Below, piece by piece: positions 15,126-41,275 of a stretch of DNA of 64,000 nt. Below the pieces are notes generated by a model. It was not told the DNA's origin. It saw only the letters and a list, made by a program, of their open reading frames with translations, and did no database searches. Source of the stretch: Lingula anatina (taxonomy: Eukaryota; Animalia; Brachiopoda); NCBI GenBank assembly GCA_051362555.1, contig CM120646.1, positions 3,100,001-3,164,000 of the forward strand, read 5' to 3'. Numbering within the stretch: the first letter of the stretch is position 1; each line of letters starts with the position of its first letter. Both the position numbers and the translations under genes were made by a program.

Positions 15126-15883
15126 TTCACAGGTACATAGTGTACCCTGCGAGGCAAGGTGAGTGCTCAGCACTTTGCTTTTCAACTTTCGGTGCCATGT
15201 GTTTTCATTAACATGTTTTAGGTCGCTCAGTGTTCCGATAAGCCACGTAAACAGATGTATTCAAGTCTACTGGGTTATAATTATTTTGGTTGCAGGCCCG
15301 TAGCCGGATATTTCAAAAGGGGGTTCTTTTTCTAAAAACGTGGACCCTTTACATGTGCCATGAAACCCTTGTGTGCCTATATCAAATTTTACCCAAAGGG
15401 AACCTTTTTCCGGCAAAAGAGGGGTTCATTCTACCCCCCCCCCCCCAAAGAAAAAATTATCAAACCATGCCGTCGAAAAATCTGCTTCAACTTCGCACTC
15501 ACGGCTCCATTCCCGTGTACCGGTACTTCCAGCTAAAAATCACCAGGCAGCTTCACGTCTTACACCATTCGACGTCACTTCCTGTCTCCTCCTGTACCTT
15601 TTATTCTAGTCCCAGTTACTGTTATAAACTAATTGAAATCATCTGTATTGTGTCAGCCATTGGAGAATTCCTCAGGGAGGCACAAGGGTCGCAGCTCAGT
15701 GTAAAGAGGGCACTGATTAAAGCACGCGTATATTTAGCAGTGCCAATCAATCGTCCGTTACTCAGGGTAATAATATTATGATTGCCATATCGTGATTTCT
15801 CTCGGATTGAAAAATCGATTATTGTCAATGCAGAGGTACATACACTTGTGATAGTAATTGGACGCAATCCCATTTTGTTAATT

Positions 15884-16011
15884 GACATTTTCCACCTAAG
15901 TGCTCTTGTTATATGCCTGGCGACTTAGAAATCTTTGCATAACAAGCTCACACACGGTACGGGGAGTGGAAGCTTTGGTCGAAAATACAAGGATTCCTTT
16001 TGCACATCAAG
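15884..16011 (+). other. Probable non-coding 5' exon of CTHRC1-like gene A
   Basis: Aligns with 27624-27750, and both end in AAG|GTAAGT. The ATG exon has its own acceptor (ttacag|, exon from 16658). Start approximate. Confidence 0.65.
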
Positions 16012-16672: not shown

Positions 16673-19600
16673 ATGGCCAGTGTGCTAAAGATTTCCTTGG
16701 CACTGTTGCTTCCCTTGGTGGCACACGCCAACATCGAGTATGCAACAACTCACGAGATGGAAGAGTTTGCAAAGTTTACAGAGCCAGTGGATCTGGCCGG
16801 CTTTAACAACGACAGCTGCTCTGCGTCCGGCACTGAAGATAACGTCGTTTGTCAGGTAAGAGTTGAGACTCGCAATTGCAGCGCTATGTATAGCTTTTGA
16901 CAATAGATTTCACATTATCATCTGCAAAAAAAGTTTTAGACCTGTCTAATTACATTAATTTATCGTATATATTGATTACTTCCACCGTTGGCAATTTAAA
17001 TATTTCATTACTACCTATAAGCTTCTCCGTCAAAACAGCATTTTTTTTCTTGTGCAATTGTTAAGATATTGAAATCCTATCTTTTAATTAACTTTTTTTG
17101 TGGTTGGTTTTTATTCGCTCGATAGTAATTAGAGTAGTTTGTATGAATATCTGAATTAACTTAAAATAAGCATATATACCCAAGATCCTGACGTTAACAG
17201 GTTTTGAAAATTTTCTCTTTATACATATATATATTTCTTTCACCGTTGGCGACTTAAACATTTCGTTACCAGGTAAGCTTTTAAAAACAAAACAGCATGT
17301 TTTTCACTTGTGCTTTTGTTTAATATTGAATTCCGATATTTTTATCAGCTGCAGTTTTTGTCGTTTACCTTGTTTGTTTAATACGCTCGATAGTAATTTA
17401 GTAGTTTGTCTGAATATCAAATTAAACCAAAGAGAACCATGGATGCCTGATGGCATGGTGTCGACAGTTCAAAGAGGAAAATTGTATGATAAATCTATAG
17501 TTCACCTCGAGCTGTAAAGCTTCCTGAAACAAAAGAAAAAAGTTTGCAATTGGTGTTTATTGATCTACTAGCTGTTTCTACCTTTATTCTTTTAATTGAT
17601 TATTGGGTATTATAAGGTTATTGAATCAATAATTCCATCTTTCTCCTTTTAATTGATTAATAGGTAAATTTAGATTATTGATCTTATGTTTCCACCGTTC
17701 TTCGTTTCACTGCTTATAAGGTATTCTTACATTGTTTGACGTGCCTTCATCCGGAGACGAAGGTAGAGAGATTTTATAGAATCGGCTGCCTATTAGCCCA
17801 TTAGAACTGAAGCTACATGTAGTACTGATATCTAGAAAAGACACCAGAACAATTTTACTTTAATAGTATTTCAACTAATATTACATTTCACTTTCATCAT
17901 GAAAGTCAGATTAATTATAGTCTTATAATGCATATCTTAATATTCGGTTTAGATTTACTCCATAAATTGTGGTCTTAATCTTTTATTCAGTTTTTTTCCA
18001 CTAAGATCTAAATTATTTTTTACTTATAATGCAACGGTGCTGAAACACATACATGCATATAAATACAAGCAGCATAATGAGGGCTGTTCTGAGGCAACCA
18101 AGAGACAAGAGATAACTCGTCTTTTTAAAAAAGTAATTGAGCCGTCTGATATCATTGTTTGTTTTTTTAAACTTGAAATGCATCGTAGTCTATTTGCCCA
18201 ACGTAGAATATTCGTAAGTGGAACTTTGAATCATTGTCGTTATTTCAACTCATCATCTACTTCACATCTAATAAATCTCACCTTTTTCACGTGAAGCTTT
18301 CTTCATATTCAGGGGAGTCATTCAGCAACATATACACTGCTAATCACCCCATGTTGGTCAAAATCTAAGGCCATCCGCCTCCCTCACCGACCTCGTTATC
18401 TCACTGTCTGTCTGTCCATCCGTCCGTCCGTCTGTCTGTGTGTCTGTCTGTTTGTCCGTGTGGCTTTAAACAGTTTTGGTGAATGTAACTAAAAGCTTAC
18501 ACATTTACACGTGGTCTTTTACTTAATTTTTTTGTATTCCCAGATGAATTCGACAAGCTTTGGTAACTGTCAACGTCAGTGTCACCGCAATGTCCACAGA
18601 TGTCAAACAGCCAAGTACTCTGCCAACAGCAACAAATGTACAGTCTACCTGGACAATACCACACGTAGGTACCGATAGACTTATAAAAACAAGAGAAGCG
18701 ATGATGAAGTGATAGATTTAAAAAAAAAGTGTCAGTCATCCAGCTGATGTAAAACCCCCTTTACACTGGACGGCGTCCTTTCTGCGTCCTTTGTGCGAAC
18801 ATGAAACTGGCCAGGACGCCGTTGGACGCTCAAAGAACGCACAGTGATCGCCAAGGTTGCACAAAGAACGTTCAAGCATCGCCGAGGACGCCATGGACGC
18901 AGCGAAGTTTTGAGCATGTTCAAAACAACCGTAGAGAGAACGCGATGGAGGATGGTCGCTCAATGGACGCAGAAAGGACGCAAAAGCATCGCCGTGGTCG
19001 CAGAGAGGACGCACAAGCATCGCCGCGGTCGTAGAAAGGAGGCACAAGCATCGCTTTGGTTGCAGAATGAAAACTCAAAGATCGTCCAGTGTTCGGCACG
19101 TAGAACATTATTTTTTTCACTCTCAAACGGGGCCGTGCTGAGGTATTTTTCACCAGACAGGAATTCTAAGGGCAACAGTTGTCTTATATCAGCCTCCGAT
19201 TGTTTTTCCCCTAAAATTCAAGAAACGATCAATTTTTTTGAGGTTATTATAAAACGAATATTTTGCCTTTTTTACACGATGCATTAATTGTCAGAACTTT
19301 TTGCAGAACGCGTCATTTGAAAACGGATTCAAATATTCTATGTTGTGTCAGTCACACTTTCTCGTTTCGGCGCCTGTCCATCCTTCTTATAAGGATAACA
19401 ATGAGCATCTGGCTGATTATCAGTCCATGCAGATCTTGCATCACTATAGTTTAAAGCGTTTATTACCATTTATTTGTTTTGTGTGCTGGAAATGTGCTTA
19501 ATTGGAAGGCCTGGTTAGAACCGATGAAAAAATATGAGTTAGAATATATAGAGATGAACGCCCAAACAACGCTCATCGGTCAAGCAGGATGCAGAATGAT

Positions 19601-22600
19601 CGTAAAATAGACGCCACTGATCGCCGATGAAGGTACAGAGAGCGCAGCAAGAATGGTCAAAGGTCGCTCAAACATCGCAATGGACGCCTTGGTTTGCACA
19701 GGGGACGTACAGTGGAGGCAGGCAGGTTGCTCGCAGTTTTACAGGTAAAATCAAGATTCGGTCGTTCAAAGGACGCACAAGGGACGCAGACGCCTTTACA
19801 CCGAGACACGATTTAATTTCTTTGGCGACCGTTGAGCGTCCTGACCACATTTTTGAACGCAGAAGGGACGCAGAAAGGACGCCGTCCAGTGTAAAGGGGC
19901 CCTAAATAAATATATTGCATCTTCTTACAGTGCATAAGTGAATTTGCAAATACATGTAGTTTGAATTAAAAAAAGTGCTAAAAAGCAGTGGAGACAAAAT
20001 ACATGTATATCGAATAAATTTCTGTTATGTAAATCTTTGCGGTCAAGTCCGCTGGTCAGTCTGACCTACTGTCGGAGAGTAACCGCCTCGGTTATTATAG
20101 GATGCCTAATTAACTGACCCCACTGACCAAGTTATGACTTTGGCGATCTCAAGAACTCCCTCTTTAGTCAGAATTGATCTCCACACCTTTGTTGTTTGTT
20201 TTCACTTCCACTTGGCTATACCTGAAATAATCGCATTACGACACATTTATAAGTTTGTGTAGATATCTTCCAAATGTATGATATGTATGATTACGAAATC
20301 ATATATTATTATTATTATTATATCTTAGGAGGCTGCGATAACTTGGGGGTCACCAATCTAAGGCAGTACACTCGCAGATATGGAGATGGCAGATCAAGCG
20401 GGGAAAGCTGGGTGAGTGAAAGCGGTGTTCAATCAGATACATGTACAGACAACAGATGAATACCGATTTTCGATGTGAATTTGACCCCCGCCTCCCCCTC
20501 CCCCCCAACAATATAGTAGTAAGGCACACATAGAGAGTAAAGATCAATGCCCATTACTAATTGATCGGTCAATCGATGATCACTGCAATCTAACTGATTA
20601 TACGTCAGCTATTTTCGACCTTACGACATTGATTTACCAAAATCCGTCCATTAATTTTCGAGTTAGCTTAGTAACTAATAAACCAACAAAGTCAAAAAAA
20701 CTTTGTCAGGTCATTTTATGCCACTCACTAGCGCGCACGTGTGCTGAACAAAAAGCTCAGAATGAGTTTTTCTTTTCACTCGAAATAAAAATAAAAGATA
20801 AACCAAGGTTGTGTGAGTGAACACACAAACACACACGCGCGAGCGCGCACGCACACGTACGTATATCTATCTAAAAAGCCCATGGTCCTCCAATCTAAAT
20901 TCGTTGCCAACGAAGTCATTAAAAGCTTCCGTACGTGCTTTTTAAATAACACGTTTTCTTTACAAATCAAAAGATTCATAATTTTGATTATAAATGATAA
21001 AATTGATAAAATACGTTACAATGGATATCAATCGCTAGCTAAGTTTTATAGGTAGGCTATAGGTATATACCGCCTCAATTTCTTCCTCTTTGTCTTTCAG
21101 GGGGTCACATACACAAAGCTATACGACTTTACCGGACTCCGTGTGCGATTTGCAGGCAACTTGCGGGTTAGTTCGGGCGTTAACAATCATGCAGCCCGAT
21201 TTTACGTTAAGTTCAACGGGCAAGAATGCTCAAACCCGGCTACCATTGAATACGTTGGCAAAAACGACGGCAACCGCAGGGATGAACTGAAACATGATGA
21301 ATGTAAGTACAATTGCTCTATTAGTACAGCAAATTGTTGGTTCCTTCATTACACACACAGAAACGGGAAAAAAACGTTACTGTATAGAGTAGCTGTCACT
21401 ACTGGCTTTTGTATTAAAAGCTGAAATGTGTGAAGAATAACATAAAATATGCCATGCCTAAATAAATAGATGAGTAAATGAGTAACTAAATACATGAAAA
21501 AACAGATATGTAATTGAAATGAGATAAACCATTGTCACCATCGGAAAAGATATGAACATTCACTGCATGATTATCAACCATTCTAGTTGAAGGGATCTGC
21601 GAGGGTTTGGCGGCCGGAAGTATAAACATTGGAATATACACAGGAAACGTACCGGGTTATAGTGTTAGCGGTGCGCACATTGGTTGGGACACAGCCAATA
21701 GGATTTTAGTGGAGGAGGTCGACACAAGACCCGTCCAAGGTAATTTTAATCTTATTAATTCTTAGGATTTTATCTCGCCCTCTTTTTGTAAGGTCTTTTG
21801 GGATACTTCATCTGGCATAATTATTAAACATGCGTGTATGGCTATGTTAATGCAAGTACACCATTTCCCAAACCTACCGAGACATGTATGTCCTACTATA
21901 AGCAAAACAGAAACAATTTTTCTGATAACAATGAACTTAATGTAGCACATTGTTTACTGGGTAGAGCTTAAATTTAGATTTCTGTTAAGTTAGAAGTGAT
22001 ATATTTCTGTAAAAGAGGTTTGCGTAATCATTTTAGCTCCCTGCGCACTTCTAAGTCTGTACAACGTCAAACAATACGTGTTCCCGAGTTTCACGCATGA
22101 GCAGGATAATGGCGTTATTCCTGGATTGGTAAGTGCCCCCCTCTCTCTCTCTCTCTCTTACATACACACATTTCCATTACCCATTTTCAAGGCATCAACA
22201 AACACACCCTTCAGAGCATACAAAAATTAAGAATATTCGTCGTTTTTTATGATACCCACAGACAGACGCGCGCTCATGTACATCACTACAAAGGCACCAG
22301 CAAAGACACGCTCAAAAACATACGACTCGACAAAATTATTTTTTTTAGTACACGTGTACTCAAAGACACGTTTGGAGTCAATCTCACATCTTCTTCATTC
22401 TACGCTGTCGCCATTGGCTGTGAACTACAAATTAACATTACCAAACTGTTACATCTATTTCAACAAATATTAAAATCAATTTAACTTTTCTAGGATGTTT
22501 CCTACGAGAAAGTCGCCTCAGACAGCGCACTCCGGGTAAAGTGGTTTGGGGTACTGAGAGGCTATCAGGGAAATTATTGCCGCCGGTGGTTCTTTACTTT

Positions 22601-25435
22601 CAATGGAGTGGAGTGCACCTCTCCCTTCCCACTCGATGGTGCAGTGGGGTTCCTGCACGGTAACGACGCGTCCCCACAGTATATGTTTCGAACAAGTAAG
22701 TTTAAATGGGCAAGCTCTGTAATGCCTGAAACTAAAATAGTCGCTGCCTATAAGGGCGATAACATGAACGATAATTGATATTATAAGATGAAAATTAATA
22801 AAATAATAACATGTATTCCGATTTTCAAAAAAAAAAAAAAAAAAAAATTAAGTTCGTTTTGTGAGACCGGTCCCTTTGACTCCACTATATTTCAATATAT
22901 AAATATTTTTAAAAAATGTGTATTTCAGTTGAAGGTATATGCGAGGGTTTGGGGAAAGGACCGTACACTATTCAGTTCAATGTTGGAGCCTGTCCTACCA
23001 GCTCCTTCTCACACCATAATGCGTACACTGGGTTTTCTAACACTGTTTCCCGCATCATAGTGGAAGAAGTCCGATTAGGAAGAGGGGAAAATCAAGGTTT
23101 GTAAATGTATTACAGTTGTTAATACTTGTATTTGTATAATAACATTGCAGACGATCTATCCAATGATATAAATGTTCTTAAGGTAGGACTGCAAGTTGGA
23201 GATTTTAGCTTTTAAGATTATTTCTTTTATTTGAACTCACATAATTGAAAACATCCAACTTTTTGGTTGCTTTAATTTTTTTAAAACTTATTTTGTTATG
23301 ATAGATATATAATTTTAATTGCTTTCAATAATACAGCAATGATATATCGCTTGAATATGCGTCATACTCCCGCTGGTTTCAGGGCTTGATAATTTTCCAA
23401 TGGTATATTTTATTTGTTACATCTGATTTTTTCACAACAGTAATTATGCAGCTTGTCAAAAATAGTATTATCATATATAAAAAAGACGCATGACAATCAC
23501 AATGTTTCCGTATATTACAGTGATACTGAACGAAGGGTATAAGCTGACCAACTCTGTGTTTAACGTACATCATTGGAACTGGTATGCCGTGGACAGCACC
23601 GACAACAACGCAGAAATTAAGGTGCGTTTCTGTTTGTTTATTTTTGCTTCGCATCTCAATGGAATTCGTGTACTTCGAAGCATGTTGTTTATTTAAGAAG
23701 TTTATAGTTTTCATCTCATAGGCATGGTATATATATAAATATAGAGCTTTTTTTCCTTTTAAAGTTAAACCCTCATTTTGTATTCGGTTATTGTCGGGTT
23801 TATACATACAGTATATGCGTCATATTTGTCTGTATGTGCAGCATTCTATGATTTGTTTTAGAATTATTTTTTGTTTCTCGTTTCTCGGAGAAGACTACAC
23901 AGCTGTGGGATCGAAACCAGCGGTATCTGAAGTGAAAATAATAAAATCCTTTGAAATTTTTTCAGAGGTTCAACTACATCAAGATGAGTAGCAGTACCAT
24001 CCTTCGCGTAACCTTTAACGGCGTGATTCGACCTGCAACGTGAGTAATAAGTATACACGTGCATTTTGAAATAAATTCAAATCCAGTGTCTGAGTGGGGG
24101 TGGGGGTGGGACAATAGCTCCTATATCAGATATTTTTAAAAGAATAAATATTTGAAATATGCATGTGGTATTTTAGCCTTTACCCTTTTTCCAGTCCAGT
24201 AGATTTTAGTCTTCACTCAGCGTCAAAATTAGTACCATACCACATTTGGAGCAGATTACATTCCTGCACAAGACAAGAAATGAGAATTGAACTTTCTGGG
24301 GTCTTAGAGTCAATAGAATCCATACTCCCTCATCCTCCAAAATCTGTCTGTAGCGTTTTTCCAACTATAAGCTAAACCCTAATTTGGGGGGAAATGCCTG
24401 TAGCCAGCACCCAAGGCATTTTTCCCAACATGCTGATACATATTATTATTCATTATTATTATTCATTATTCTCGTCTGTGTATCATTTCATTAGTAATAT
24501 CAGAAGAACATGCATTTATCGCAGAATGTGGTTCTAGGCTCTTTGACACATGTATAAAGAAAGGAGGAGCTGATTTTTAAAAACCCAATCCGCCAACCAT
24601 CTCCCAGTTTTTGAAGTATTTACAAAAAGACTTAAAAGTGAGTGCATGCAAGCACCTGTTGTCCTCAGCTTGTGTCTCCTCTCCTCCTTTGGAAGGATGT
24701 GGGTAATCATGCATTCACCATTTTGTCCTATCAATATGGTCCATAATCGTACGATTGTGACCCATCTCTGGTATTCATTATAAATGGCAGCAGAATTAAT
24801 GGCGATATGTTAAGTCAAAATATTAATTTACGTTTTACTTTCGTTTTTTTTTTCGTTTACCAGTAATTTACGTTTTTTTTTCTGTAGGTCTCGCGGGCAC
24901 TGTGCACGGTGGTTCTTCAAGTTTAACAATAACTTGTGCTCCAACCCTGCCACAATTGAAGGAGAGTGGTACGAAAACAGCAGCGATTATGCTGAATTGG
25001 ACAAAAGGGTCCCGACATCAGGTAAATGACGGCATGTAGAAAATGTGGTAAATGGACTTGCGCAAAACAAGCACCGGAAGTTTAAAAAGAACTTGGGCTC
25101 CAACCATCTTCCGTGGGTTATCGTACTTATTTATTTATTTACAAGTAGTTATTTTTGGTGTTTTTGTATATGGTATGTTGTATGCCTAAATGTCTGTGCA
25201 ATCCACATTTACGTACAAGTCCAAAAATGGAAAACTTTATACTATATCACTATTAGATTTCATGAATGTTTTATTTCTTACAGTAAGCGGAATGTGCAAG
25301 GGCCTGAACGCAGGAAGCGTGTTGGTCACATTCAACATTGGTCAGTGTAATTCTGGCCACGGGCTTCACAGCACCTATACCGGCTGGATGACCAGGATGA
25401 CCATCATAGTGGAGGAAGTTCACGCCGAAGCTTAA
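16673..25435 (+). CDS. Gene A: secreted protein, signal peptide + PAN/apple-like domain + 3 tandem CTHRC1-type C-terminal domains, no collagen repeat (554 aa)
   Basis: Exons 16673-16855, 18544-18664, 20329-20411, 21101-21302, 21587-21739, 22037-22128, 22494-22695, 22929-23096, 23521-23621, 23966-24039, 24888-25021, 25284-25435. All introns GT-AG with compatible phases; 1665 nt open to TAA. Motifs SALRVKWFGVLR..CRRWFFTFNGVECTSPFPLDG..IEGICEGLG..VGAC..AYTG..VSRIIVEEV match the CTHRC1 C-terminal domain. CQRQC..RCQTAKYSANSNKCTVY fits a PAN domain. N-terminus is hydrophobic. Confidence 0.9.
18753..19902. mobile_element. Non-autonomous PIF/Harbinger-like element in gene A intron
   Basis: TIR core CCCCTTTACACTGGACGGCGTCCTTTCTGCGTCC is inverted at both ends, with TAA on each side (18750-52, 19903-05). 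Internal GGACGC repeats, no transposase. Absent from the 153-bp equivalent intron of gene B. Confidence 0.85.
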
Positions 25436-25741
25436 ATATCTTAGGATTTGCTGAACACTTACTGACCAACATTTTGAGTCCTTATGCCTATACTCCTAGT
25501 ACACGTTTAACCACATGATATAAGCTAATTAAATGACCACCATTAAGGGTCTGGATGTTCTCCTTTTTATTGCATGTGTATAGCGTGCGCTGGCGTTAAT
25601 AGTATATGTGACAGATGTGTAATGATAATGCCTTAAACTACTAAGACTTATATGTCGTGCATATTTGTCTTGAAATGTTAGCGTACATTTTGCTGTAAAT
25701 ACTGTGCCGCAGGGAGCGTCAGATGGCGACTTTCAAAATTA

Positions 25742-26280
25742 AAGCCTAGATTACATTTGCCTAAAGATGTCCTTGCACTCCTCCTGTAATGTTTCTTTTT
25801 CGTGCGGTGTCCGGCGGAGGCAGGTTGTGGTCATGCAAATCCGTACAGATTCGCAGCCCCCGCATATGATTTTGTCAAGCTTAAGCTTTTGGCTAATTTT
25901 GAAAATCGATAGACTGTAGGGCGTAGCGTTATCGTAGATGGCATTGCACAGTTCCCTCATTGTTTGGTGGACTTGCGGTGATCGTGATAATGGCTGAACC
26001 TGTTGTTGATCGCTTTCCCTTCCACCTTTGGTGATTTTAGGAGGCAAAATAATAGTAAAGATGTTTTAAAAGTAGTGTAATTCAATTGCATGAATTCGAA
26101 GTTGTTTGTTTTCTTATTCAAAGAAGTGTACGTACGGACCTGCACCAACAGCTTATCGATCTGCACGGAAGGCGTACAGTAACTCCACTGACACTGCATA
26201 CTTACGGTGTCATAAAAAACGAACAGAAAATCGTTAACCAAACCATCGTGCGGCGCCCGTCGCAAATGTAGTCTAGGCTT
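25742..26280. mobile_element. MITE downstream of gene A
   Basis: TIRs AAGCCTAGATTACATTTGC and GCAAATGTAGTCTAGGCTT, flanked by TA on both sides. Absent downstream of gene B. Confidence 0.75.
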
Positions 26281-27427
26281 TAGTTAATATAAATTTTCTT
26301 TTTTTTTCATTAGTTCCATATGTTTCACTATGAGTGAGACCTTTGTTTTGTTTGAATATTAAGTGTGCTTAAATTATATGATTTTCATATCTTAAAATGT
26401 TTTTATCCCTACATAAACAGGGCATGACCTTTATTAAATTTAGCAAAGTGTGTAATGCACTGAAACAGGCAAATGTTGTTTCCTTATTTGAAAATAAAGT
26501 TTTCAGCTCTAACTTGGTTAATTCTTATATGGTTTAAAACACTCCAAAAATACCAAGGCAAAGGTATCGACGGTAGGCTCGTAGAATAAATTCCAACACA
26601 CTAAAAACATTGCGTATTTGATTGTTACGGAAATATAATTATCTCGCCGCTCTCTGCCCGTTTCCGTAAAACATTTGCGGCTTTACAAGGGCAGAGACAA
26701 AGGCCTAAATATGTTATACTAAAATCAATCGTTTCATTACATATTTCCAATAAAGGGAAAGAAAAAAATGTAAGACCCAAGTTGTTGGCACTTCTGTTCA
26801 GCTCTGTGCACCTTGTCTTAAGACGTTCTTTTTCTTTTCATTTTTTCTTTTTTTTATTTATTTTTTTATTTTTTTATTTATTTATTATTTTTTTTGAGAC
26901 ATTATAGTATTACGTGCTTCACTGTCCTTCCAGGCGACAATCCCTGAGATGTGTATTAAACAGGAATATTAAAAATATCGTGCTGTCGTTTTTTAGCTGT
27001 GAGCAACACTCAATGAGACAGATATATAATGTGGCTACATGTATAGTTACTCTCACAGTAAATCTCTTACGCTAGCACCCCACCTAAGTTACTAAGTTTA
27101 TAAAGCGCGGAGATTTTGAAAGAAAGTGAACTAGCCAGTGCTACGTCGTAATTTCCTGTATAGTTAAGCATAATTTTCTGTTTCACTGTAGTAAATATGA
27201 TAGAGTAGTTCATTTAGCATAATTACGAAGGGTGGTACTAGATTATCAATTGTTTTCTTAAAGTTACGCTGTGAAATGTTAAAAAAGAAGTAGAAATTCA
27301 GCATATTCTTCTTCATCCCTACTACAAATATGCTTTACACTTGGGTGAAATGCTACTGAGCGGTCATAGTGCATTTTCGTGATGTGATTAAACTGCCTAA
27401 ATTGCCATCGTTGTGACGAGGGAAGTA

Positions 27428-27487
27428 TTTATTTGCATTCACACATCAATGCAGATATCAAGTTCCATTATTGCCCGGAAGAGAGTG
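27428..27487 (+). promoter_or_regulatory. Paralogous upstream block of gene B (ATTTGCAT, ACATCAATG, CCGGAAG)
   Basis: Aligns to 15065-15125; lies ~140 bp upstream of the putative non-coding exon. Confidence 0.35.
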
Positions 27488-27623
27488 ACACACATGGAGC
27501 CTGTGAGACTGTTCTCAGGATCTTTTTTGTTTCCACCTTTCACTTTGGGATTGGGTCGATGAGGGTTAATGCATAGGTACAAACTCTCAAACAAAAAATG
27601 GATACCATTCCTTGTTTATAGAT

Positions 27624-27750
27624 TGACATTTTCCGCCTTAGTGCTCTTATTATACGACTGGCAACTTGGAAATCCTTTCATAACAGCAGCGGACACGGCC
27701 CAGGAGGGAGAAGCGTTTGGTTGAAAAAAGGGTTGCTTTTGTATTTCAAG
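27624..27750 (+). other. Probable non-coding 5' exon of CTHRC1-like gene B
   Basis: Homologous to 15884-16011 and ends CAAG|GTAAGT. Confidence 0.65.
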
Positions 27751-28370
27751 GTAAGTAACTGTTCAATGGTACTAGTAGTGTATATGCAAGAATTATCACT
27801 TTTCAAATAATAAACGAATCAAATGAGTGGTGGTAAACATTAGTTGAAAATGCTTTTGGTGCGCAATTCGCTTCCATCAACATACAATTACTCGGTTATC
27901 AGTTGTTTTCTGAATGCTTAAATTGTAAGTATTACATTTTAGGTTTTCCGAAATATATATATATATACTCTACTGTTTTCATTTTTGCCTGGTTAAGGAG
28001 ATGAAGTAACTGAAATACTGTGATTTACGAACGTTATGTTTTTTTGTTAATAGTCCGACACCGCAAACATATTTTTTCAATCAGTGACTTTTACATATAG
28101 GTACCAGCACTAACATATTAAAATACTCGTTTACTCATTAGTTGACTTTTTTTTGTATTTTCGAATTTACAGATTTTTCATGAAAATAATCATTTGTTTT
28201 TTGCTCTATCTATTTCTTCCTTTATAAATCTATCTACATGTACACTGTATTTATCCACCCATTTATCAATCCATTTATTCATGCAAGTGCAGATAGTGAA
28301 AAAATGTTTAATTTAGTTTATATAGCCATTTATCCATTTTTGATTTCTTTATATTATTACAGAATATAAC

Positions 28371-30177
28371 ATGGACAGTGTGCTTAAGATTTCCTTGGCA
28401 CTGTTGCTTCCCTTAGTGACACACGCCAACATCGAGTATGCAACAACTCACGAGATGGAAGAGTTTGCTAAGTTCATAGGACCAGTGGATCTGGCCGGCT
28501 TTAACAATGACAGCTGCTCTGCCTCCAATATTGAAGATAACGTCATTTGTCAGGTAAGATTTTTAGCTCTGTGGGATGGCTTTTGACTGATTTGAAATAA
28601 CCAGCTTCAAAAAAACTTTTATATAAATATTGATTACTTTCACCACCTGAGGCAAGTTAAATATTCCATTACCACTAAGCTTTTTCGTCAATACAACATG
28701 TTTTCTATGGTGCAATTGTTAAGATATTGAATACCTATCCTTGGTCAACCTCTGTTGTTGGTTCTGTATTCGCTTTGTAGCAATTAGTGTAGTATATCTA
28801 ATTATCGAAATTAAATGATAGAAGCATGGTGCCCCTGTCCTGATGTCGGCAGTTCACTTACGTAAATCAGAGGATACATCAATAGTTCGTCTGGAGCTGA
28901 AAAGCTGACTGTAAACCTAGGACATATTTAACAAACTGCAATTGACAATTATTATCTACTGTTTCCAGTTTTTTACTTTGAATTGGTTATCAGGTATTTG
29001 TTAGATTGTTAGACGTGCTTCCATCAAGCGGCGAAGGTTGAGTGATTTTATGGGGTCAGATGCCTCAAAACGTGAGAACTGAATCTGGCACTGATGCGGT
29101 TTAAATTATCTCAAAACATTTTTTTCAAGAGCATATTCCAACTGATTTTACATTTTACTTTCATTTCAAAGTCAGCTTCATAGTCTTATAATGTACCCCC
29201 TGTATATCTCACCTTGTATATATCTAAAATGTATATTTTTCATCATAAATTTAAGCTTGTCTGTCATTCCGATATTTTTACGAAGATCTTGAATTGTACA
29301 GTAACGTCGTAAGTTCCTTCCGAAATGCAGTAATTTAGTACTAAATTATAAAACTAAAATGGAAAAAGACATCAAATCCAAGTACAGGTAGGGAGTGGTA
29401 GAGCAAAGATTCGTGAGTTATGGAAATTGTTTCTTTCCGAGAGAAATTTATTTTGACGGTTATATCCCGTACAAAAACAATCTAATCAACAGTTTTTATA
29501 GTGACGTCACAGTTCTGTGGTCATTGATCGAACAAGCCGAGCTGGCCATTTAGTCATTTTTTTTTTTTTTTTTTTTGTAAATTGAGTCAGCTTCTTGTAT
29601 CACTGATGTAACCTCAACTATTCTATATTCTATTTAACCAATGCAGAAAACCAATGAAGAAAATTTGGAAGGGGAAGTTCACACTTTGTATCAAAGTCCA
29701 TTGTCCATATTTCAAATAGGCGCGTATTTTAAAGCTTTCTACTGTCGAATTTTACTACCTTTGTACAATAGTCTCATTCATCGACATTCGCTCTATGTGT
29801 CCTTCTGTTGGACAAAAAATACGAGACCATAAATTGACCATAAATTGTCTCTTTGTCTGTTTGGTTGACTGATTTTAAGCAGTTTTGGTCAATGCATCTT
29901 ATTACTTACAAATATACAATAGGTTTTATTACTTAATTCCTTATCTTACCAGGTGAATTCGACAAGCTTTGGTAACTGCCAGCGTCAGTGTCTCCGCAAT
30001 GCCTACAGATGTCAAACTGCACAGTACTCGGCCAACAGCAACAAGTGCACTGTCTACTTGGACAATACAACGCGTAGGTAGACGCTTGCTTGTAGAAGTG
30101 GTAAATCTTGAAAATTAACATTCACCTGTAAATATTCCTTACTATTGCATGATATATATTATTAAGAGGGTAGTTCA

Positions 30178-30221
<44 letters not shown>

Positions 30222-31662
30222 CTTAGGAGGCTGTGATAACTTGGGGGTCACCAATTTCAGGCAGTATTCCAGGAGCGGCTGGTCAGACTCTAGATCTAGC
30301 GGGGAAACCTGGGTGAGTTACAGAAGGTGGTTCTTATATGTTCTAACCGAAGTATTTCGATTTAAAATGTGAATGTTTGCTTCATGAATCATGCGATTCA
30401 TATTTTTGATTATAAATGAGTAAAATGATAAAATGTATGTAATGGTTATCAATCACAAAACTTTATCTTTTATTGGTATGAAAAGCGGGACCCTTTGACT
30501 TTAGGCACTAGCTCCCGTTTAAGATCCTTGCTCAAAAGCACGTAGAAGCTTCAACGGTATCCTTCTTTCAGGGGGTCACATACACCAAGCTATACGACTT
30601 TACCGGACTCCGTGTGCGATTTGCCGGGAATTTGAGGGTTAGTGCGAACGTTAACAATTACGCAGCACGATTTTACTTTAAGTTCAACGGGCAAGAATGC
30701 TCAAATCCTGCCACCATTGAATACGTCGGCAAAAACACAGGCAACCAGAGAAACCAAAGGAAACATGATGAATGTAAGTACACTTGTCCTATTATCGCTG
30801 TTATAGTTATAATGTTATTTTGACACAGGCTGAGAGCAACGTCGCTGAAGCGCTGCTGGGATTTGTTTGAAGCAAAGTCAAAATATCCCAGATGTGTGGA
30901 GAATGACTATATACGAAAGTCAAGCCACACCCTTAGTTTAAGGTATATATTACAATATAAAATTAAGATAATCTCAGCTAGAATCAGTGTGAAAAAGTTT
31001 TCTTAAGGATCTTTGAGCCTGGTCACTTTGTTTCAGTTAAGTAAAATATATAAATGAATGAATAAATATATAGATGAATTAGATAAAATTTTCACCATCG
31101 GAAAACAACCCGACCTTTTTACTGTTTGCCGACAATTTTTTCACATTCTAGTTGAAGGTATCTGCGAGGGTTTGGCGGCCGGAAGTATAAACATTGCCAT
31201 GTTTACGGGCAGTGTACCGGGTCATAGTGTTAGCGGTGCAAAAATAGGCTGGGACACAGCCAATAGGATTTTAGTGGAGGAAGTGGACACCAGACCCGTC
31301 CAAGGTATATCAGTCTTTTTAATTCTTTCTCGCTGGAAGTTCATCCAATACACTTCATCCGGCCTGCACTTGGTGATGTTTTATATTAGTACTTCTTACC
31401 AAACTTACTGGTATGCGTTTGCCATTCTAAGCAAAGAACAGTTAGTTTTCTCATAACGATGAGCTTTATATAGTACAATTTTTACTTGATATAGTTTAGA
31501 CATTTGTTTCACTTCTGAAAAAGAGGTTTGTCTTATCCTCTCAGCTCCCTGCGCTTTTCTAAGTCTGTTCAACGTCAAACAATACGTGTTCCCGAGTTTC
31601 ACGAATGGGCTGGATAATGGCGTAATACCTGGGTTGGTAAGTGCCTCTCTCTCTCTCTCTCC

Positions 31663-31695
<33 letters not shown>

Positions 31696-34600
31696 TCATA
31701 CATACCACTACAAAGAAATGCTCAAAAACATGCAGACTCGACAAAAAACAAGTGTCTTCTTAGTAAATGTTTTTGTCACAAACGAATATTTTTATACATG
31801 TACTCACAAACACTTTTTGAGTCAATCTGACATTGCCTTCTATGTGCACTGTTGTCATTGACCGAGGATTACCAATGAATATTACAAAACTGATGAATCT
31901 ATTTCAACAGATATAAAGAGCTATTTTAATTTTTAAGGATGTCTCCTACGAAAAAGTCGCCGCAGACAGCGCACTTCGAGTAAAGTGGTTTGGGGTACTA
32001 AGAGGCTATCAGGGAAATTACTGCCGCCGGTGGTTCTTTACTTTCAACGGAGTGGAGTGCACCTCTCCCTTTCCACTCGATGGTGCAGTAGGGTTTATGC
32101 ACGGTCACGACGCGTCCTATCAGTACATGACACGATCAAGTGAGTTTAAATGCGCACGCACTCTATGGCTGAATAGAATAGAAGTTATTGTTCTAGCAGG
32201 ATCGATCTATCTTAGCGGTTATTCTCGCTTCGGCGCAGTCAATGTCATCAGCTAAATTGTCTGGCACTTCCCCCTCGCAAAGCAACATGAACATCATCAT
32301 GGATCACAAAGTATTCCCGGCTTAACTCAAATACGAGGCGCGTTAGGCGTGTTACGAGGGGCGTGCCAGACAATTAAGGTGTTTACATTGACTGAGCCTT
32401 AGCGAGAATCACTGCTAATATAGATCGATCCTGCTAGTAAGATACATCCTACTCTCAACACAGTCTAACACACGTAAATCTGCATATGAACTGATAAACA
32501 ATTAATTTATATTGTCAGCATTAACAAAAATATAATTAAATTCCAACTTTCACCATTTTCATTTGTATTGAATCGTTTCCGTTAAAGCTCTTCATGTGTT
32601 TCAAAAGAATGTTGGATCCAAATATATGAATACTCTTTAGTTTTCTTTATAAATATAAAAGCTCATTAACTAAATGTCTCATAAATGTACAGTGCCTTTA
32701 ACGACAATTTAGGTTCTTTTAACACATAATGATAAAATGGCCTTTTTCAATGAGCGTTATGATTGATTAACGTAGAGTGAAATGTGACCTTGAAATACTA
32801 GTATGAATTCACTCTGAAGGAATTGTTAAGTTTAGAACTAAACAGAGATAATTTATCTCATTTTAATTTAATTTATCTAGAGGGCGTAAACAGTAAAATA
32901 CACGTACACCATTCTCAAACTTGAAATCAGAAAAGTTTTTAATTTGATATTGATTAATTATTGTTTTGTACCAGGGTGGAACAGTTCCACAAATAATTGA
33001 CTTTACTATATATTTATATAAATGTTTTCTTTTAAACTTGCGTATTTTAGTTGAAGGTATTTGCGAGGGTTTGGGGAAAGGACATTACACGATTCAGTTT
33101 AATGTTGGAGCTTGTCCCACCGGCTCCTTCTCGAACTACAACGCATACACTGGGTTTTCTAACTCTGTCTCCCGCATTATCGTGGAAGAGGTCCGTTTAG
33201 GACGACGGGAAAATCAGGGTTTGTACACGTGTCACATTTGTTGCTGTTAATATAATAACAATGTAAATTGAAAGGTGATAAGTATTTTATAATAAACAAC
33301 GTAATGTTATAGCAAAACTTAAGCTTTGATAAACACTTGCGCACTGCATCATACCTGTTGGTGCTTTACGTTGGGTTCGAGGTTTGGTAGCCTTCAAATG
33401 TCAATCTATTTGTTTGGTATTATTTTCACACTAAAGTAATCATGAAATTCGTTGAGGTGGGTATTTTCAATTCGTAAATGTTTCCATATATTACAGTGAT
33501 ACTGAACGAAGGGTATAAGCTGACCAACCCTGTGTTCAACGTACATCACTGGAACTGGTATGCCGTGGACAATACCAATAATAACGCAGAGATTAAGGTG
33601 CGTTTGCCTTAAAGGTTCTTTTCTGAATCTTTCCTAATGTATTTGCATTTTCCATCGTGGACAACATTCTGGGATTTGATAATGCAGTTAATTTGAAGGG
33701 ATAAAATCAAGTCTTGTAAAACTTGTTTCTTTTTTAATATTAAACTACATGGAGTAAATAACTGAAATCTTGTAAAATTTGTTTTTTTTTTTTCAGAGAT
33801 TCTACTACATCAAGATGAGTAGCAGTTCCGTCCTTCGTGTAACCTTCAACGGTGTGATTAGACCTGCAACGTTAGTTGGTGTATTCTTTCCTCTTTTAGG
33901 AAGGAAATAAGGACCCACAATTTTGCCTTTTTTGATAAATTACAATTGATAATGTAAATCCCGGTTCCTCGTAAGCTTAGGCACATAATCGAACACATTT
34001 AAACCTTCTTTCGAATTGGCTACAGCAAAAATGTCGATACGTTAAGTCAGATGATTAAAGTCTTTTCTCCATTTTTTTCGGGGGGGGGGGGTGCATATCC
34101 TTGTGCATATACTTTTTTAAGTCATTATTTCTTGAATTAAGAACATTCATATTGGGTGGTTGCAACAAAATTAAAAAGCATGCTACTCTTAAGTTCTATT
34201 GTATGCAGTTAATGCACCACAAATTGTGCTTAGAAAATTATGTACCTGAAAGTTTGAAAATATTGAGTAAGTACCGTTATTCATGTTTTTCTACAGGTCT
34301 CGCGGGTACTGTGCACGGTGGTTCTTCAAGTTTAACAATAACTTGTGCTCCGACCCTCAGACAATCGAAGGAGAGTGGCACGAAAACAGTAATCAGTATG
34401 CTGAAGTGGACAAAAGAATCCCGACATCAGGTAGATATTGTAGAGAAGGTCGTTAACGAAGATTTGTGACGCACCCGTACACACACAACGACACATGAAG
34501 TTTTTGGAAAACGTACGTCCGAACTGTATTCTGTTGATTAATTTATCTATTTATTCGCCTGTTTTAGTTTAGTATGCTGTTTTGGTAAGTTTGACTAAAT

Positions 34601-34841
34601 TTCTGTGCAACGCATATTCACTTAAAATCCAAAATATAGAACTATTTGTGCTGCATTTCTATTACACCACATCTATTCATATCTTTCAGTAAGCGGAATG
34701 TGCAAGGGCCTGAGCGCGGGAAACGTGTTGGTCTCCTTCAACATCGGCACATGTAACGCTGGCACCGGGCGACACAGCACCTATACCGGCTGGATGACCA
34801 GGATGACCATCATGGTGGAAGAAGTTCACGCGGAAGCTTAA
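28371..34841 (+). CDS. Gene B: paralog of gene A (signal peptide + PAN-like + 3x CTHRC1-type domain, 555 aa)
   Basis: Exons 28371-28553, 29953-30073, 30227-30312, 30572-30773, 31152-31304, 31545-31636, 31938-32139, 33051-33218, 33497-33597, 33797-33870, 34297-34430, 34690-34841. Same sizes and phases as gene A except +3 nt in the third coding exon. Frame is open; ~87% aa identity to gene A by hand count. Confidence 0.9.
30179..30219. repeat. (TAT)n microsatellite next to a splice acceptor
   Basis: Visible; a shorter version sits at the paralogous site ~20304-20321. Confidence 0.85.
32194..32436. mobile_element. MITE with TAG...CTA termini in gene B intron
   Basis: ~85-bp imperfect TIRs (TAGCAGGATCGATCTAT... 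/ ...ATAGATCGATCCTGCTA). Absent from the equivalent gene A intron. No clear TSD. Confidence 0.7.
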
Positions 34842-35217
34842 ACATCTTAGGATTTGTTGAACACTTAATGACCAGCGTATTATTTCTTTATTCCTGTACC
34901 CCTGACACACGTTTTGTGACATAAAATAAGCTATCATTTTTCTGAGCGATTGACTCCTTCCCACTGTTTGTAGTGTGCACTGGCGTTAATAGTAAATGTG
35001 GCAAAGACATGGGATGATAATGCATAAAACTACATACATACATGTAGGTTATATGTTCGTGTGTGGTGAAATTCGAGATCTTGTGCGTAGACGCACAAAA
35101 TGTCAAAGTAAAAATCAATTTAAAGGTTTATTTGAATAAGACTTGTAATTCATAGATGCAGTTTCTGTTTTCAAGTCCAACATTTTAGTCACATTCATTG
35201 CTGCTGCCGTTCATCAA

Positions 35218-38200
35218 TCATGACTTCAAATATCTCCACTTCTTGTTGAATATGAGCAAAAACGTTGCCAAAACGAACACGCCAAAACATGACGCAATGG
35301 ACAGGAACACTGCGTGGTAGCTTCCTGTGGCGTCACGGATATGTCCTGTAGAAAAAAAAAGGAGTAAGAAATAATAATGATACCAGAATATAATGTCGGG
35401 ATATCATCAAATTTGATTTAGTCAGAACAGAACTGATAATAGTTACGATACTACTGGTGCAGTGGTCATATATATTTATTTAGAGTTCCTATCATAGGAA
35501 AAGAATTTGAACAGAAAGTAGTGGTCATCATAGGACGGCGGAAACAAATATCTGTTTCCAATAAATTTCAGTGCAATGCCAAGAACATTTTTTACTTCAT
35601 GTTATAATGGTCAATATATTAAGCGTTTTCTTGATGTATTTAGTGTATTTTATGGGGTCTAACACAGCAGCTATTATTTACCATATTGCAGTACAATAAA
35701 TCAATTATTACCACATTGGTAAAATTAAGTAAGTTAGGTATAAATTATTTAATTATTTTTATTGCGGTGAAAAATAACAAAATGAATATGTATAGAAAAT
35801 GCACCGTGCAGGAACAGTAAGAACTAAAATTACCTGCCAAGTAGGGTCCCACGGTAGCTCCGACTCCTTTGCTCAAACGCATTGTCAAGAATAACGTATA
35901 GATATTCTCTCCGTCCATGATTTCATTGTTGACAGCATAATACCCGGCAAGGTATGGGCCAAGAAAAAACCCCGAGACTACAACATTGGTTAATACTTTG
36001 ATAAGAATAACTGCCATATCAAAAATTGAATTTTAACTGAGTCTCGTATTATCTTAACAAGGGAAGCCATGCAATGTGCACTACCGACTGGTTTCTGACT
36101 GGCATATTGAAATACATACTTATGTCAACAATGTTTTGCTTGTTTGTGTCTAATAAGAAGATATAAAGAATACTTTTTTTAAATCGCATCTTTAAAATAC
36201 ATATATCGATGCGATTCTAATACTAAATCTAATTATGGAGGCCAAACATCAAATGTAAAAACGTACCCACCAGCACAATATACATATACAGCAGTCAAAG
36301 ATGTCGAATATGCTGCTATAATATTATTCACAGTGAGCACCGTAGCCGCCACAAGGTTCACCACCATAATATATCCCTTCACATAATCCCCAACCAATGA
36401 GGCAAACGCCTGTCCAATCGCACCTACGGTCCCAAATACTGATATAACTTTCACTGCGTCGGCTTCCTTATAACCAAGGTCTATCAAATGTTTTGGCTGA
36501 AGAAAATAAACCATTACGAAAGAAGTGATATGTATAACAAAAAATGCAACTGAAATAAAGTTAAAACACTGTTTGGTGTCATCTAATTTTGACTTTACAA
36601 GAAAAAAATATCTTACTATTCGAGAAGTATAAAACTTTTACTTAATATACTTTACTCGACAATAATAACTTTCATATTAACAATATGTTATTGTGAGTGT
36701 TTGAACTTTTGCATCTTCCTTTGACATCCAGCTTTCTTTAATTGTCAAACAATTGAAAAATTGCGCAAAATACATATAACATATTAATCTGCTGTTATCT
36801 GCTTGGTGGGAAGTACGAACTACATGTATTTTTATCTTCTGCTCTCGACTGATCACTATTTAACTTTTTGTTAGTCACCAATCTCCCAAAATTTAATGTT
36901 CTTTATTTCACGTACGTTACAGTTCATGCGACAAAACCAGTTAAAACATGGCACAGCAGTTTCGAAAACCGTTGGAAAAATAACTGAGTTTTAAATTAGA
37001 GCGTTTTCGATTCATACCTTTCATATTTTGAGACACTTCCCTGGTTAGAATAAATTGGTGCATCGTTGTTGTGTTGCTGTTTGATTTTAATTCATTACAC
37101 GTCTTTGCATGCTATAGTAATGATATAACATGATCGGTGCATATGCAAATTAGAATATGCGACCAAAACTACTTTAAGATGCTTCACATACAATAGTAAT
37201 TTTGTATACTTACTAATATAACCATTGGTATGAAATAAGCAATTCCTTTACAGCACATTGCTATTGACCAAATTCCATGAGTAACGACTTTAGAACGCAC
37301 AGACCATGGAGGTTTCTGAATATTCGGTGACCTGAAAGACCGTTATTTGTATTTAAAATGCAACAACAGATATCATTTTCGTATCCTTATATACCACACA
37401 TGATCTCTTCATGGTCAACAAGTTCATATTCTCAAAATATGGAAACTGTATTGGAATATTTTTATTTTTAACCAAGGCCCCTTTTACACCCACCTGTGAC
37501 CTTTGTGCCCCCTTTCTGCTAATTTAAATGTGCAACCAGGACGATCAATGGAGGTGACGAAAATCGCACAATGTTTTTGTAACTTTTAAAGTGCTGTTTA
37601 TGAGACCTTGAAGAGACATTAAAGTAAATAATGTTGCACTTGCATTTCCTGGAATATGGAAGCAAAGGCTGTGGCCGCATTCAAAACAGTGGACTAACTA
37701 GTCCGAGGGTCAAATATGGCGACCCACCAAAAAGCTGGCCGTCTATTCCGCTAATAGACACTGAATAGATCCCCCTTGGGGAAGTATTCAAGTGGGTCGG
37801 TCACATTTGACCCGCAGACTAGTTAGTCCACTGTTCTGAATGCAGCATATGACTTGATTACTAACATCAAGATAAACCTACTTTTCATTTGGCATAGCTT
37901 CTTGCTGTTCGGACGACACTATTGGGGGATTACCGAATACCGCAAGAAGAAGTGAACCCATAGAGCTAAAAACGGCAGCAAAAAGTCGAAATGCCCAGCG
38001 CCATCCCAGTGAGGGGTCGGCGCACATGTTAGCAACGACAGCATTTACTACTGTTATACCTTAAATTACAATTAAGAACAAGTGCAACATAAAATCATCA
38101 AAGGTAAATCTGAAAATAAAATGATTTCAATGACGAGTTAAAGGACTATTTGAATACACGTTTAGGATTAAAATGCACAGATAGGGAGATGCTTAAGCTG

Positions 38201-39737: not shown

Positions 39738-39785
<48 letters not shown>

Positions 39786-40728: not shown

Positions 40729-41275
40729 GTCTCGAAATCACTGTGCGCGATGGTTCTTTAAGTTCAACAATAACTTGTGCTCCGACCCTCAGACAATCAA
40801 AAGAGAGTGGCACGAAAACAGCAATCAGTATGCAGAAGTGGACAGAAGGATCCCGACATCAGGTAAATATTGTAGACAATGTTCCAAACGAAGTTGTGTG
40901 ACGCATGTATACATACAGCGGCACGTGAAATTTAAGGAAAACTTACGTTCCAACTGTATTCTGTTGATTATCATATCTATTTATCTATTATCTGTTTTTA
41001 GTTGTATGCTGTTTGGGAAAGTTTGTTTACATTTCTGTGCACTGCATATTCAAGTAAAATCCTAAATATGGAACTATTTATGCTGTATTATACCACATGC
41101 ATTCAAATCTTTCAGTAAGCGGAATGTGAAAGGGCCTGAGCGCGGGAAACGTGTTGGTCTCCTTCAACATCGGCACGTGTAACGCTGGTTCCGGGCGACA
41201 CAGCCCCTACAGGGGTATATCGGCTGGATGACCAGGATGACCATCATGGTGGAGGATGTTCACGCCGAAGCTTAG
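40729..41275 (+). pseudogene. Orphan copy (C) of the last two exons of the CTHRC1-like gene
   Basis: Exon 40729-40862 is open (SRNHCARWFFKFNNNLCSDPQT...). The exon from 41116 has TGC>TGA at 41127-41129 and an 8-nt insertion at ~41208-41215. Upstream exons are absent. Confidence 0.9.

What the first reader, a model, noticed from the sequence alone, without database searches (positions are those of the whole stretch)
16673..34841. Unusual secreted protein family: PAN/apple + three tandem CTHRC1 domains with no collagen helix (possible single-chain pseudo-trimer)
Seen: two intact genes encoding signal peptide, Cys-rich PAN-like domain and three CTHRC1-type C-terminal domains, with no Gly-X-Y run. 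Known: canonical CTHRC1 has one such domain behind a short collagen helix that drives trimerisation and is linked to Wnt/PCP and TGF-beta signalling. PAN/apple domains bind proteins or carbohydrates. Inference: triplication may replace collagen-driven trimerisation, giving three different heads in one chain with PAN as a targeting or lectin module. Candidate roles are immune recognition, mucus/adhesive, matrix or toxin-like. I do not recognise this architecture from any characterised protein, but cannot exclude unannotated database entries.
Basis: partly seen in the sequence, partly recalled or inferred. Interest (0 to 1): 0.85.

Follow-up and report, generated by a model that had tools for sequence, protein, structure and literature searches.

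The report
Three-headed, collagen-free CTHRC1 proteins of Lingula
Two neighbouring genes of the brachiopod Lingula encode proteins with a likely secretion signal, a likely PAN domain and three different copies of the CTHRC1 head domain but no collagen; the three heads likely pack into a one-chain version of a C1q/TNF-type trimer that would bind sugars on microbes or mucus, a design that other organisms appear to have reached separately.

Summary
Observation confirmed. Two intact 12-exon genes (554 and 555 aa, dN/dS 0.20) encode signal peptide, a borderline PAN domain and three Pfam CTHRC1_C heads, with no collagen. They match uncharacterised Lingula anatina RefSeq proteins. They belong to a small family: another Lingula gene, several fragments and one unnamed intron-free record share the architecture, head-to-head linker lengths and a cysteine in front of heads 1 and 2 only. 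Head 2's predicted fold is a TNF/C1q jelly roll, closest to trimeric bacterial fucose lectins (Z 11.4-11.8). Collagen-free relatives mostly carry three or nine heads, and the nine-head protein repeats in units of three (p 0.003). This is the main support for a single-chain pseudo-trimer. The support is indirect: my AlphaFold2 models did not pack the heads confidently (pTM 0.34 and 0.39), and four-head relatives exist. Ligand and tissue are untested. I found no description in the papers searched. The concept is known from oyster triple-C1q proteins, and this scan noted a bacterial triple-head version before (e1-1519963). Verdict: new variant of a known kind.

The parts
16673..25435 (+). Gene 1, 12 coding exons (16673-16855, 18544-18664, 20329-20411, 21101-21302, 21587-21739, 22037-22128, 22494-22695, 22929-23096, 23521-23621, 23966-24039, 24888-25021, 25284-25435), 554 aa
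   Evidence: equals XP_013399589.1 but for 3 residues
16673..16855 (+). Gene 1 exon 1: likely signal peptide (about aa 1-19), a 30-residue acidic extension, and the start of the PAN-like domain (Cys49, Cys60)
   Evidence: hydrophobicity; no Pfam hit for this exon
18544..18664 (+). Gene 1 exon 2: core of the likely PAN/apple domain (C-x3-C-x6-C-x11-C)
   Evidence: PAN_1 20.7 bits, just under cut-off; strand-helix-strand-strand in both models; atlas features list PAN clusters at 0.84-0.87, a lead only
20329..21739 (+). Gene 1 head 1 (exons 3-5, aa about 105-245), preceded by Cys104; a phase 1-1 module
   Evidence: aligns to BAFF at Z 8.2, rmsd 2.8, 114 residues
22037..23096 (+). Gene 1 head 2 (exons 6-8, aa about 251-397), preceded by Cys250; the most canonical head
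   Evidence: PLTL lectin Z 11.8, rmsd 2.6, 125 residues
23521..25435 (+). Gene 1 head 3 (exons 9-12, aa about 410-554); no cysteine in front; conserved strand-H arginine replaced
28371..34841 (+). Gene 2, 12 coding exons (28371-28553, 29953-30073, 30227-30312, 30572-30773, 31152-31304, 31545-31636, 31938-32139, 33051-33218, 33497-33597, 33797-33870, 34297-34430, 34690-34841), 555 aa, same architecture
   Evidence: The RefSeq model XP_013399537.1 starts instead at an in-intron stretch near 29641 and lacks the signal peptide
15815..16011 (+). Likely non-coding first exon of gene 1, ending in a GTAAGT donor; inferred
   Evidence: 73% alike to 27556-27760 upstream of gene 2; acceptor-like AG shortly before each ATG
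27556..27750 (+). Likely non-coding first exon of gene 2; inferred
40729..41275 (+). Broken third copy: only the last two exons, with an in-frame stop and a frameshift, carried in a 6.4-kb tandem duplication

Best explanation
These two intact paralogous genes encode likely secreted proteins in which three divergent CTHRC1-type heads, each predicted to be a TNF/C1q jelly roll, likely pack around a pseudo-three-fold axis within one chain, and the clefts between heads would likely bind glycans on microbes or mucus. Shown here: exon structure, domain content, absence of collagen, purifying selection, a wider family with the same layout. Predicted: the fold. Inferred: (1) an ancestral brachiopod-type Cthrc1 head module, bounded by phase-1 introns, was triplicated long ago and placed behind a PAN exon; (2) covalent linkage replaced the collagen stem, with linkers of fixed length and a likely Cys104-Cys250 bond holding the bases of heads 1 and 2; (3) freed from symmetry, the heads diverged and give three unlike clefts; (4) PAN adds a further binding or anchoring site. 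My odds: single-chain trimer about 0.7; glycan or pattern recognition as its job about 0.45.
For: Fold: the ten best rows of the wide search for head 2 are TNF/C1q-type heads: PLTL lectin Z 11.4, Pgp3 11.0, BclA 9.9, EDA-A1 9.5; C1q scores 8.6. BC2L-C N-domain Z 11.5-11.7. In PLTL the sugar pocket lies between adjacent protomers (PMC12914763, passages). Foldseek's best hit for the whole model is single-chain C1q head, E 1.9e-7. Counting: of 33 multi-head proteins held, 11 are collagen-free, complete at both ends and have adjacent heads; 8 of these 11 have 3 or 9 heads (one is a splice isoform of another). The nine-head protein P0161 repeats with period 3: 59.4% identity in phase against 36.1% out of phase, p 0.0033 in 20,000 shuffles; periods 2 and 4 show nothing. 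In P0020, heads 1/4 are 94% and heads 2/5 82% identical. Family constraints: spacing from strand H to the next head's first strand is 20 then 27 residues in 4 of 4 full-length members at about 30-35% identity to the window's pair. A C-x6-N cysteine precedes head 1 in 5 of 5 and head 2 in 7 of 7 members that cover those places, and precedes head 3 in none. The strand-H arginine (86% of single heads) is replaced in 7 of 7 third heads, against 3 of 6 first and 3 of 7 second heads. Selection: dN/dS 0.20 overall, 0.15-0.25 for the four mature-protein regions. The atlas's own model has pTM 0.65.
Against: My two AlphaFold2 models have pTM 0.34 and 0.39. The match to single-chain C1q has rmsd 12.7 A and TM 0.23, and VIA aligned only one head to it (116-117 residues), so trimer packing was not reproduced; only head 2 had a deep alignment. 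Four-head relatives exist: P0013 (Oscarella, with collagen) and P0007 (at least four, N-end incomplete). P0005 (Lamellibrachia) has two heads and no collagen. The three-head query may favour three-head hits. The cysteine bond could merely close head 1's own ends. Trees do not cleanly resolve heads by position. Identity to the lectins is only 10-13%, and a shared fold shows no function. No binding data exist.
Confidence: 0.6

Rival explanations
1. The heads do not pack with each other in one chain. They are independent beads, or three chains assemble so that each head forms its own homotrimer.
For: Low pTM in both models; rmsd 12.7-16.5 A to single-chain C1q, APRIL-BAFF and adiponectin trimers; two- and four-head relatives.
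Against: Duplication in units of three in P0161 and P0020; fixed linker spacing and position-specific residues; atlas model pTM 0.65.
Confidence: 0.22
2. Same single-chain trimer, but it acts as a signalling ligand or modulator that binds protein receptors, as vertebrate CTHRC1 and TNF ligands do, not glycans. This rival concerns function only.
For: CTHRC1 is linked to Wnt/PCP and TGF-beta (PMC7058181, abstract and discussion). TNF ligands (EDA-A1 Z 9.5, TL1A 8.7, BAFF 8.2) are close fold neighbours. No excess of amino-acid change between the paralogues, whereas immune lectins often diverge fast (recalled).
Against: The heads keep only 27, 35 and 29 of 47 positions that are at least 90% conserved in 51 canonical single heads (part of that conservation is forced by the search motif). 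Lingula keeps 8 canonical Cthrc1 genes for that job. The best fold matches are lectins and adhesin tips.
Confidence: 0.25
3. A structural matrix protein of shell, pedicle or chaetae, like the NC1 heads of collagens VIII and X.
For: Secreted, disulfide-rich; collagen VIII NC1 matches at Z 8.6; PAN domains occur in phosphate-shell proteomes (PMC13425148, passage).
Against: None of 8 family accessions searched occurs in that paper's supplementary tables, while 2 control accessions do. Pedicle and chaetae were not examined.
Confidence: 0.1
4. Gene-model artefact: separate single-head genes wrongly joined.
For: No spliced read across a head-head junction was obtained here; tandem Cthrc1 genes are common (PMC7058181, passage).
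Against: The introns between heads are only 240-424 bases and hold no ATG-led hydrophobic ORF; all 22 introns are GT-AG and in frame in both paralogues. RefSeq has the same joins. P0010 carries the whole layout in a 611-aa frame on a 2,632-base contig, which leaves no room for this intron set. Linkers are conserved across the family.
Confidence: 0.03

Closest known systems
CTHRC1 / Cthrc1 family (Pfam PF25815; Leclere et al. 2020, PMC7058181)
   Same: Head domain, likely secretion, predicted C1q/TNF-like fold. Like the Lingula canonical genes seen in that paper's supplement, the heads lack the cysteine of strand A and its partner.
   Different: No collagen helix; three heads only 27-35% identical to each other; N-terminal PAN-like domain. 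None of the 8 Lingula sequences seen in that supplement resembles these heads by eye.
Oyster smultiC1q proteins (Gerdol et al. 2019, PMC6835236)
   Same: Secreted, collagen-free, several C1q-fold heads, 'three in most cases', in tandem gene clusters.
   Different: Built from PF00386-type C1q domains (accession recalled); no C1q family hit here; no PAN mentioned in the passages read. An analogue, not a relative by sequence.
TNF-like fucose lectins PLTL and BC2L-C N-domain (PMC12914763)
   Same: Best fold matches to head 2 (Z 11.4-11.8, rmsd 2.6-3.2 A, 124-128 residues); trimers with sugar sites between protomers.
   Different: Bacterial, three separate identical chains, 10-13% identity; binding residues could not be mapped.
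Engineered single-chain trimers: C1q head (5hkj, 5hzf), APRIL-BAFF-BAFF (4zch), adiponectin (4dou)
   Same: Show that three such heads can be linked in one chain; top Foldseek hits.
   Different: Artificial; my model did not superpose on their packing (rmsd 12.7-16.5 A).
Uncharacterised Lingula family members LOC106162620, LOC106180490, LOC106175063, XP_013388928.1 and unnamed P0010
   Same: PAN plus three heads in the two complete ones; same linkers and front cysteines.
   Different: P0010, P0011 and P0016 have an extra five-cysteine spacer between PAN and head 1 that the window's genes lack.

Membership tests
Cthrc1 (as defined by Leclere 2020: collagen repeat plus C-terminal domain) | Cthrc1 C-terminal domain | tested here: met
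   PF25815, three stretches, 259.9 and 260 bits
Cthrc1 (as defined by Leclere 2020: collagen repeat plus C-terminal domain) | Collagen triple-helix (Gly-X-Y) segment | tested here: not met
   Longest run 2 triplets; full-length canonical coding frames have 10-39
Cthrc1 (as defined by Leclere 2020: collagen repeat plus C-terminal domain) | One head per chain | tested here: not met
   Three heads
Cthrc1 (as defined by Leclere 2020: collagen repeat plus C-terminal domain) | Secreted | tested here: inconclusive
   Hydrophobic N-terminus in both genes; no predictor or proteomic evidence
C1q/TNF fold superfamily | Jelly-roll sandwich with TNF/C1q topology | tested here: met
   Predicted model; head 2 Z up to 11.8, head 1 Z 8.2 to BAFF; head 3 less well tested
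C1q/TNF fold superfamily | Three heads packed around a three-fold axis | tested here: inconclusive
   pTM 0.34 and 0.39; indirect support from units of three
C1q-domain-containing proteins (smultiC1q class) | Pfam C1q domain | tested here: not met
   Only CTHRC1_C and PAN_1 listed at E up to 1
C1q-domain-containing proteins (smultiC1q class) | Signal peptide plus several heads, no collagen | tested here: met
   class definition
PAN/apple domain | PAN_1 profile above cut-off | tested here: inconclusive
   Gene 2 passes (21.7, 23.5), gene 1 does not (15.9, 20.7), cut-off 21.4; relatives P0010, P0011, P0016 pass with 22.8-25.8
PAN/apple domain | Core four-cysteine spacing with strand-helix-strand-strand (pattern recalled) | tested here: met
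   Cys70, 74, 81, 93; secondary structure
TNF-like fucose lectins (BC2L-C N-domain, PLTL) | Sequence relationship | tested here: not met
   No such chain among PDB sequence hits at E up to 10; 10-13% identity in fold alignments
TNF-like fucose lectins (BC2L-C N-domain, PLTL) | Fucose pocket between protomers | not testable with these tools
   No coordinates or residue-level structural alignment were returned

The most novel reading that the evidence does not exclude
The CTHRC1 head is an ancient TNF-like lectin module that works only as a trimer. Several lineages independently dropped the collagen stem and fused three (or three times three) heads into one chain. Lingula's PAN-triple-head family is an animal glycan-recognition system with three different inter-head pockets, and it implies that vertebrate CTHRC1 also reads a glycan at its inter-subunit cleft.
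Probability: 0.25. Interest if true: 0.8.

Novelty: new variant of a known kind. Interest (0 to 1): 0.52.

Why it matters
No solved structure matched the CTHRC1 head by sequence, and its C1q-like fold rested on ab initio models (PMC7058181 section 11). A natural collagen-free, one-chain, three-head protein is a practical route to a first structure and to testing whether the head trimerises by itself. The fold's closeness to fucose-binding TNF-like lectins gives a concrete ligand hypothesis for a human protein widely studied in cancer and tissue repair. Repeated fusion in threes would be a clear case of oligomer-to-single-chain evolution. The surprise is limited: oyster triple-C1q proteins and engineered single-chain trimers already show the principle.

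Tried and rejected
RNA evidence: no RNA holder was listed. Four of nine same-species RNA runs laid on the 576-base stretch across the head 1/head 2 junction gave 1 read in all and no joints; this is no test. No whole genome is held, so the Lingula family could not be counted. A homologue search among proteins of 1120-3195 aa found none, yet later showed such relatives (P0019, P0161), so that blank was a sensitivity limit. A locus search with P0007 found no confirmed locus. The first AlphaFold2 run (8 sequences) was poor, pLDDT 52.6. Trees: FastTree grouped first heads (0.868) and second heads (0.692) but split third heads; IQ-TREE grouped 5 of 6 first heads (78) and split the others, so order of duplication is unresolved. 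Fold lists held Cry and Vip toxin chains at rmsd above 24 A; rejected as generic beta-sandwich matches. No PAN structure appeared in the fold lists, which head 2 filled; this is no evidence against PAN. The PDB sequence hit 21nr for exon 2 comes from four weak identical repeats and was rejected. Intron identities are inflated by gapped global alignment and were not used. Literature: 'Lingula anatina'+'CTHRC1' 0 papers, 'CTHRC1'+'PAN domain' 0, 'Cthrc1'+'brachiopod' only PMC7058181; broader searches listed nothing on this architecture. The Lingula immune-gene survey (PMID 29278680) is not held and may bear on novelty.
Full report
Observation. The region holds two tandem paralogues on the + strand. 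Fixing exon ends at GT/AG sites gave stop-free 12-exon models of 554 aa (16673-25435) and 555 aa (28371-34841), identical at 481 residues and without any Gly-X-Y run longer than 2 triplets. Twelve of 20 exon pieces hit Pfam CTHRC1_C. A homologue search with one exon returned the Lingula anatina RefSeq proteins XP_013399589.1 and XP_013399537.1, both 'uncharacterized'. The first has the same 554-aa joins as gene 1 and differs at 3 residues. The second starts inside intron 1 and lacks the signal peptide, probably a mis-called first exon. Each shows three CTHRC1_C stretches (about 260 bits) and a borderline PAN_1 hit.

The genes look real and functional. dN/dS between them is 0.20 (N-terminal region 0.15; heads 0.22, 0.17, 0.25). 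The introns between heads are 240-424 bases and hold no ATG-led hydrophobic frame. Each head is a module bounded by phase-1 introns, and the heads are only 27-35% identical to each other, so the triplication is old. I obtained no spliced reads, so transcription of these two genes is not shown here.

Family. A full HMMER scan of 1.84 billion cluster representatives gave 487 hits at E up to 0.001, of which the best 150 were listed. I scanned 30 of them against Pfam and looked up 10 by name. P0011 (Lingula LOC106162620) and P0010 (unnamed, 611 aa on a 2,632-base contig, so likely a spliced transcript) have PAN plus three heads. P0012, P0015 and P0016 (all Lingula), and by alignment P0022 and P0030, look like fragments of the same layout. 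Across the family, spacing from one head's last strand to the next head's first is 20 then 27 residues in 4 of 4 full-length members; P0016 has 18 and P0012 has 23. A cysteine seven residues before the first strand precedes heads 1 and 2 but never head 3. Counting cysteines leaves these two without partners inside their own heads, so a Cys104-Cys250 bond is likely (inference). All family heads lack the strand A/B cysteine pair found in 87-90% of single heads, as do the canonical Lingula Cthrc1 sequences in the supplement of PMC7058181 (passages). This points to an origin within the brachiopod-type expansion. A two-head Bugula protein (P0018) may be related. Trees did not resolve heads cleanly by position.

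Fold. With 51 single heads aligned on head 2, AlphaFold2 reached pLDDT 67.4 overall, mostly 80-95 in head 2's strands, and pTM 0.39. VIA against 48,161 chains ranked TNF/C1q-type heads first: PLTL lectin Z 11.4 (rmsd 2.7, 124 residues), Pgp3 11.0, a Bdellovibrio C-terminal domain 10.1, BclA 9.9, EDA-A1 9.5, C1q 8.6; head 1 matched BAFF at 8.2. The second look added BC2L-C N-domain at 11.5-11.7 and PLTL with sugar at 11.8. This agrees with the C1q-like fold proposed from ab initio models in PMC7058181 (section 11) and sharpens it towards TNF-like lectins and adhesin tips. Foldseek's best whole-chain hits were single-chain C1q heads (E 1.9e-7), but at rmsd 12.7 A: three tandem jelly rolls are recognised, their packing is not reproduced. 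The atlas's own model has pTM 0.65, which hints at a fixed arrangement, but I could not inspect it.

Why three. Among 161 proteins held, 128 have one head, 12 two, 15 three, 3 four, and one each five, eight and nine. Of the 33 multi-head proteins, 11 are collagen-free, complete at both ends and have adjacent heads. Eight of the 11 have three or nine heads (P0160 is an isoform of P0011). The three two-head cases are P0005 and the apparent fragments P0015 and P0016. The other 22 were dropped as incomplete, collagen-bearing or with distant heads; they include three-head P0068 and P0151, four-head P0013 (with collagen) and P0007. The nine-head protein repeats with period three (59.4% against 36.1%, p 0.0033), and P0020 likewise. 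Heads of P0017/P0019, P0068/P0151, P0026 and P0161 fall outside the Lingula groups in the FastTree run, which suggests separate triplications. The query itself had three heads, which may bias the count, but it cannot create the period-three pattern.

Mechanism. Best reading: a secreted single-chain pseudo-trimer. The collagen stem of canonical CTHRC1 is replaced by covalent linkers and a likely disulfide at the base; the heads diverged, head 3 losing an otherwise conserved arginine in 7 of 7 members; three unlike clefts result. In PLTL the sugar pocket lies between protomers (PMC12914763, passages), so glycan recognition in mucus or immunity is my preferred role, with PAN as an added binding module. 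This last step is inference from fold neighbours only. A receptor-binding signalling role is a real rival. A shell-matrix role is less likely: none of 8 family accessions was found in the supplementary tables of PMC13425148 while 2 controls were.

Comparison and novelty. It is not a Cthrc1 by the published definition (no collagen, three heads) and not a C1q-domain protein by profile. It likely works like oyster smultiC1q proteins, which are secreted and mostly three-headed (PMC6835236, passages). Targeted searches found no paper on PAN plus CTHRC1 heads or on these genes. PMC7058181 (abstract, sections 9, 11, first part of 12, supplement passages) mentions collagen-free heads in choanoflagellates, dinoflagellates and bacteria, but in what I read no multi-head animal proteins. 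I also read passages of PMC10672478 and PMC4595640, which added nothing. The Lingula immune survey could not be read. Verdict: real, undescribed in what I could search, a new variant of a known kind; interest 0.52.

Noticed in passing
window 34249-46575: A tandem duplication of about 6.4 kb (77-85% identity) copies the last two exons of gene 2 together with a neighbouring minus-strand gene; the copied exons are broken. RefSeq has an intact 99-aa model of such a tail, XP_013399588.1, which differs from the window's copy.
   Followed up: partly
window 35745-63756, minus strand: An array of about five or more paralogous multi-exon membrane-transporter genes; two exon pieces give weak MFS_1 hits below cut-off. 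They resemble monocarboxylate transporters (recalled, not tested).
   Followed up: partly
window 18756-19899: An insertion in gene 1 intron 2, absent from gene 2, bounded by 64-nt inverted repeats (86% complementary); likely a non-autonomous DNA transposon.
   Followed up: partly
window 53871-58478: Several tandem and inverted copies of a repeat of about 700 bases; unexplained.
   Followed up: no
window 46759-47774 (minus) and 13860-14398 (plus): Open frames that look like fragments of non-LTR retrotransposons (recalled resemblance); Pfam gave only coiled-coil noise or nothing.
   Followed up: no
proteins P0161 and P0014: An unnamed 1395-aa protein with a signal-like N-terminus and nine CTHRC1-type heads in three triplets.
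   Followed up: partly
proteins P0068 and P0151: Three-head proteins ending in hydrophobic tails, possibly membrane- or GPI-anchored versions.
   Followed up: no
proteins P0013, P0120, P0053: Other CTHRC1_C fusions: collagen plus four heads plus FN2 (Oscarella); RING plus TRAF zinc fingers plus one head; folate-receptor repeats plus heads.
   Followed up: no
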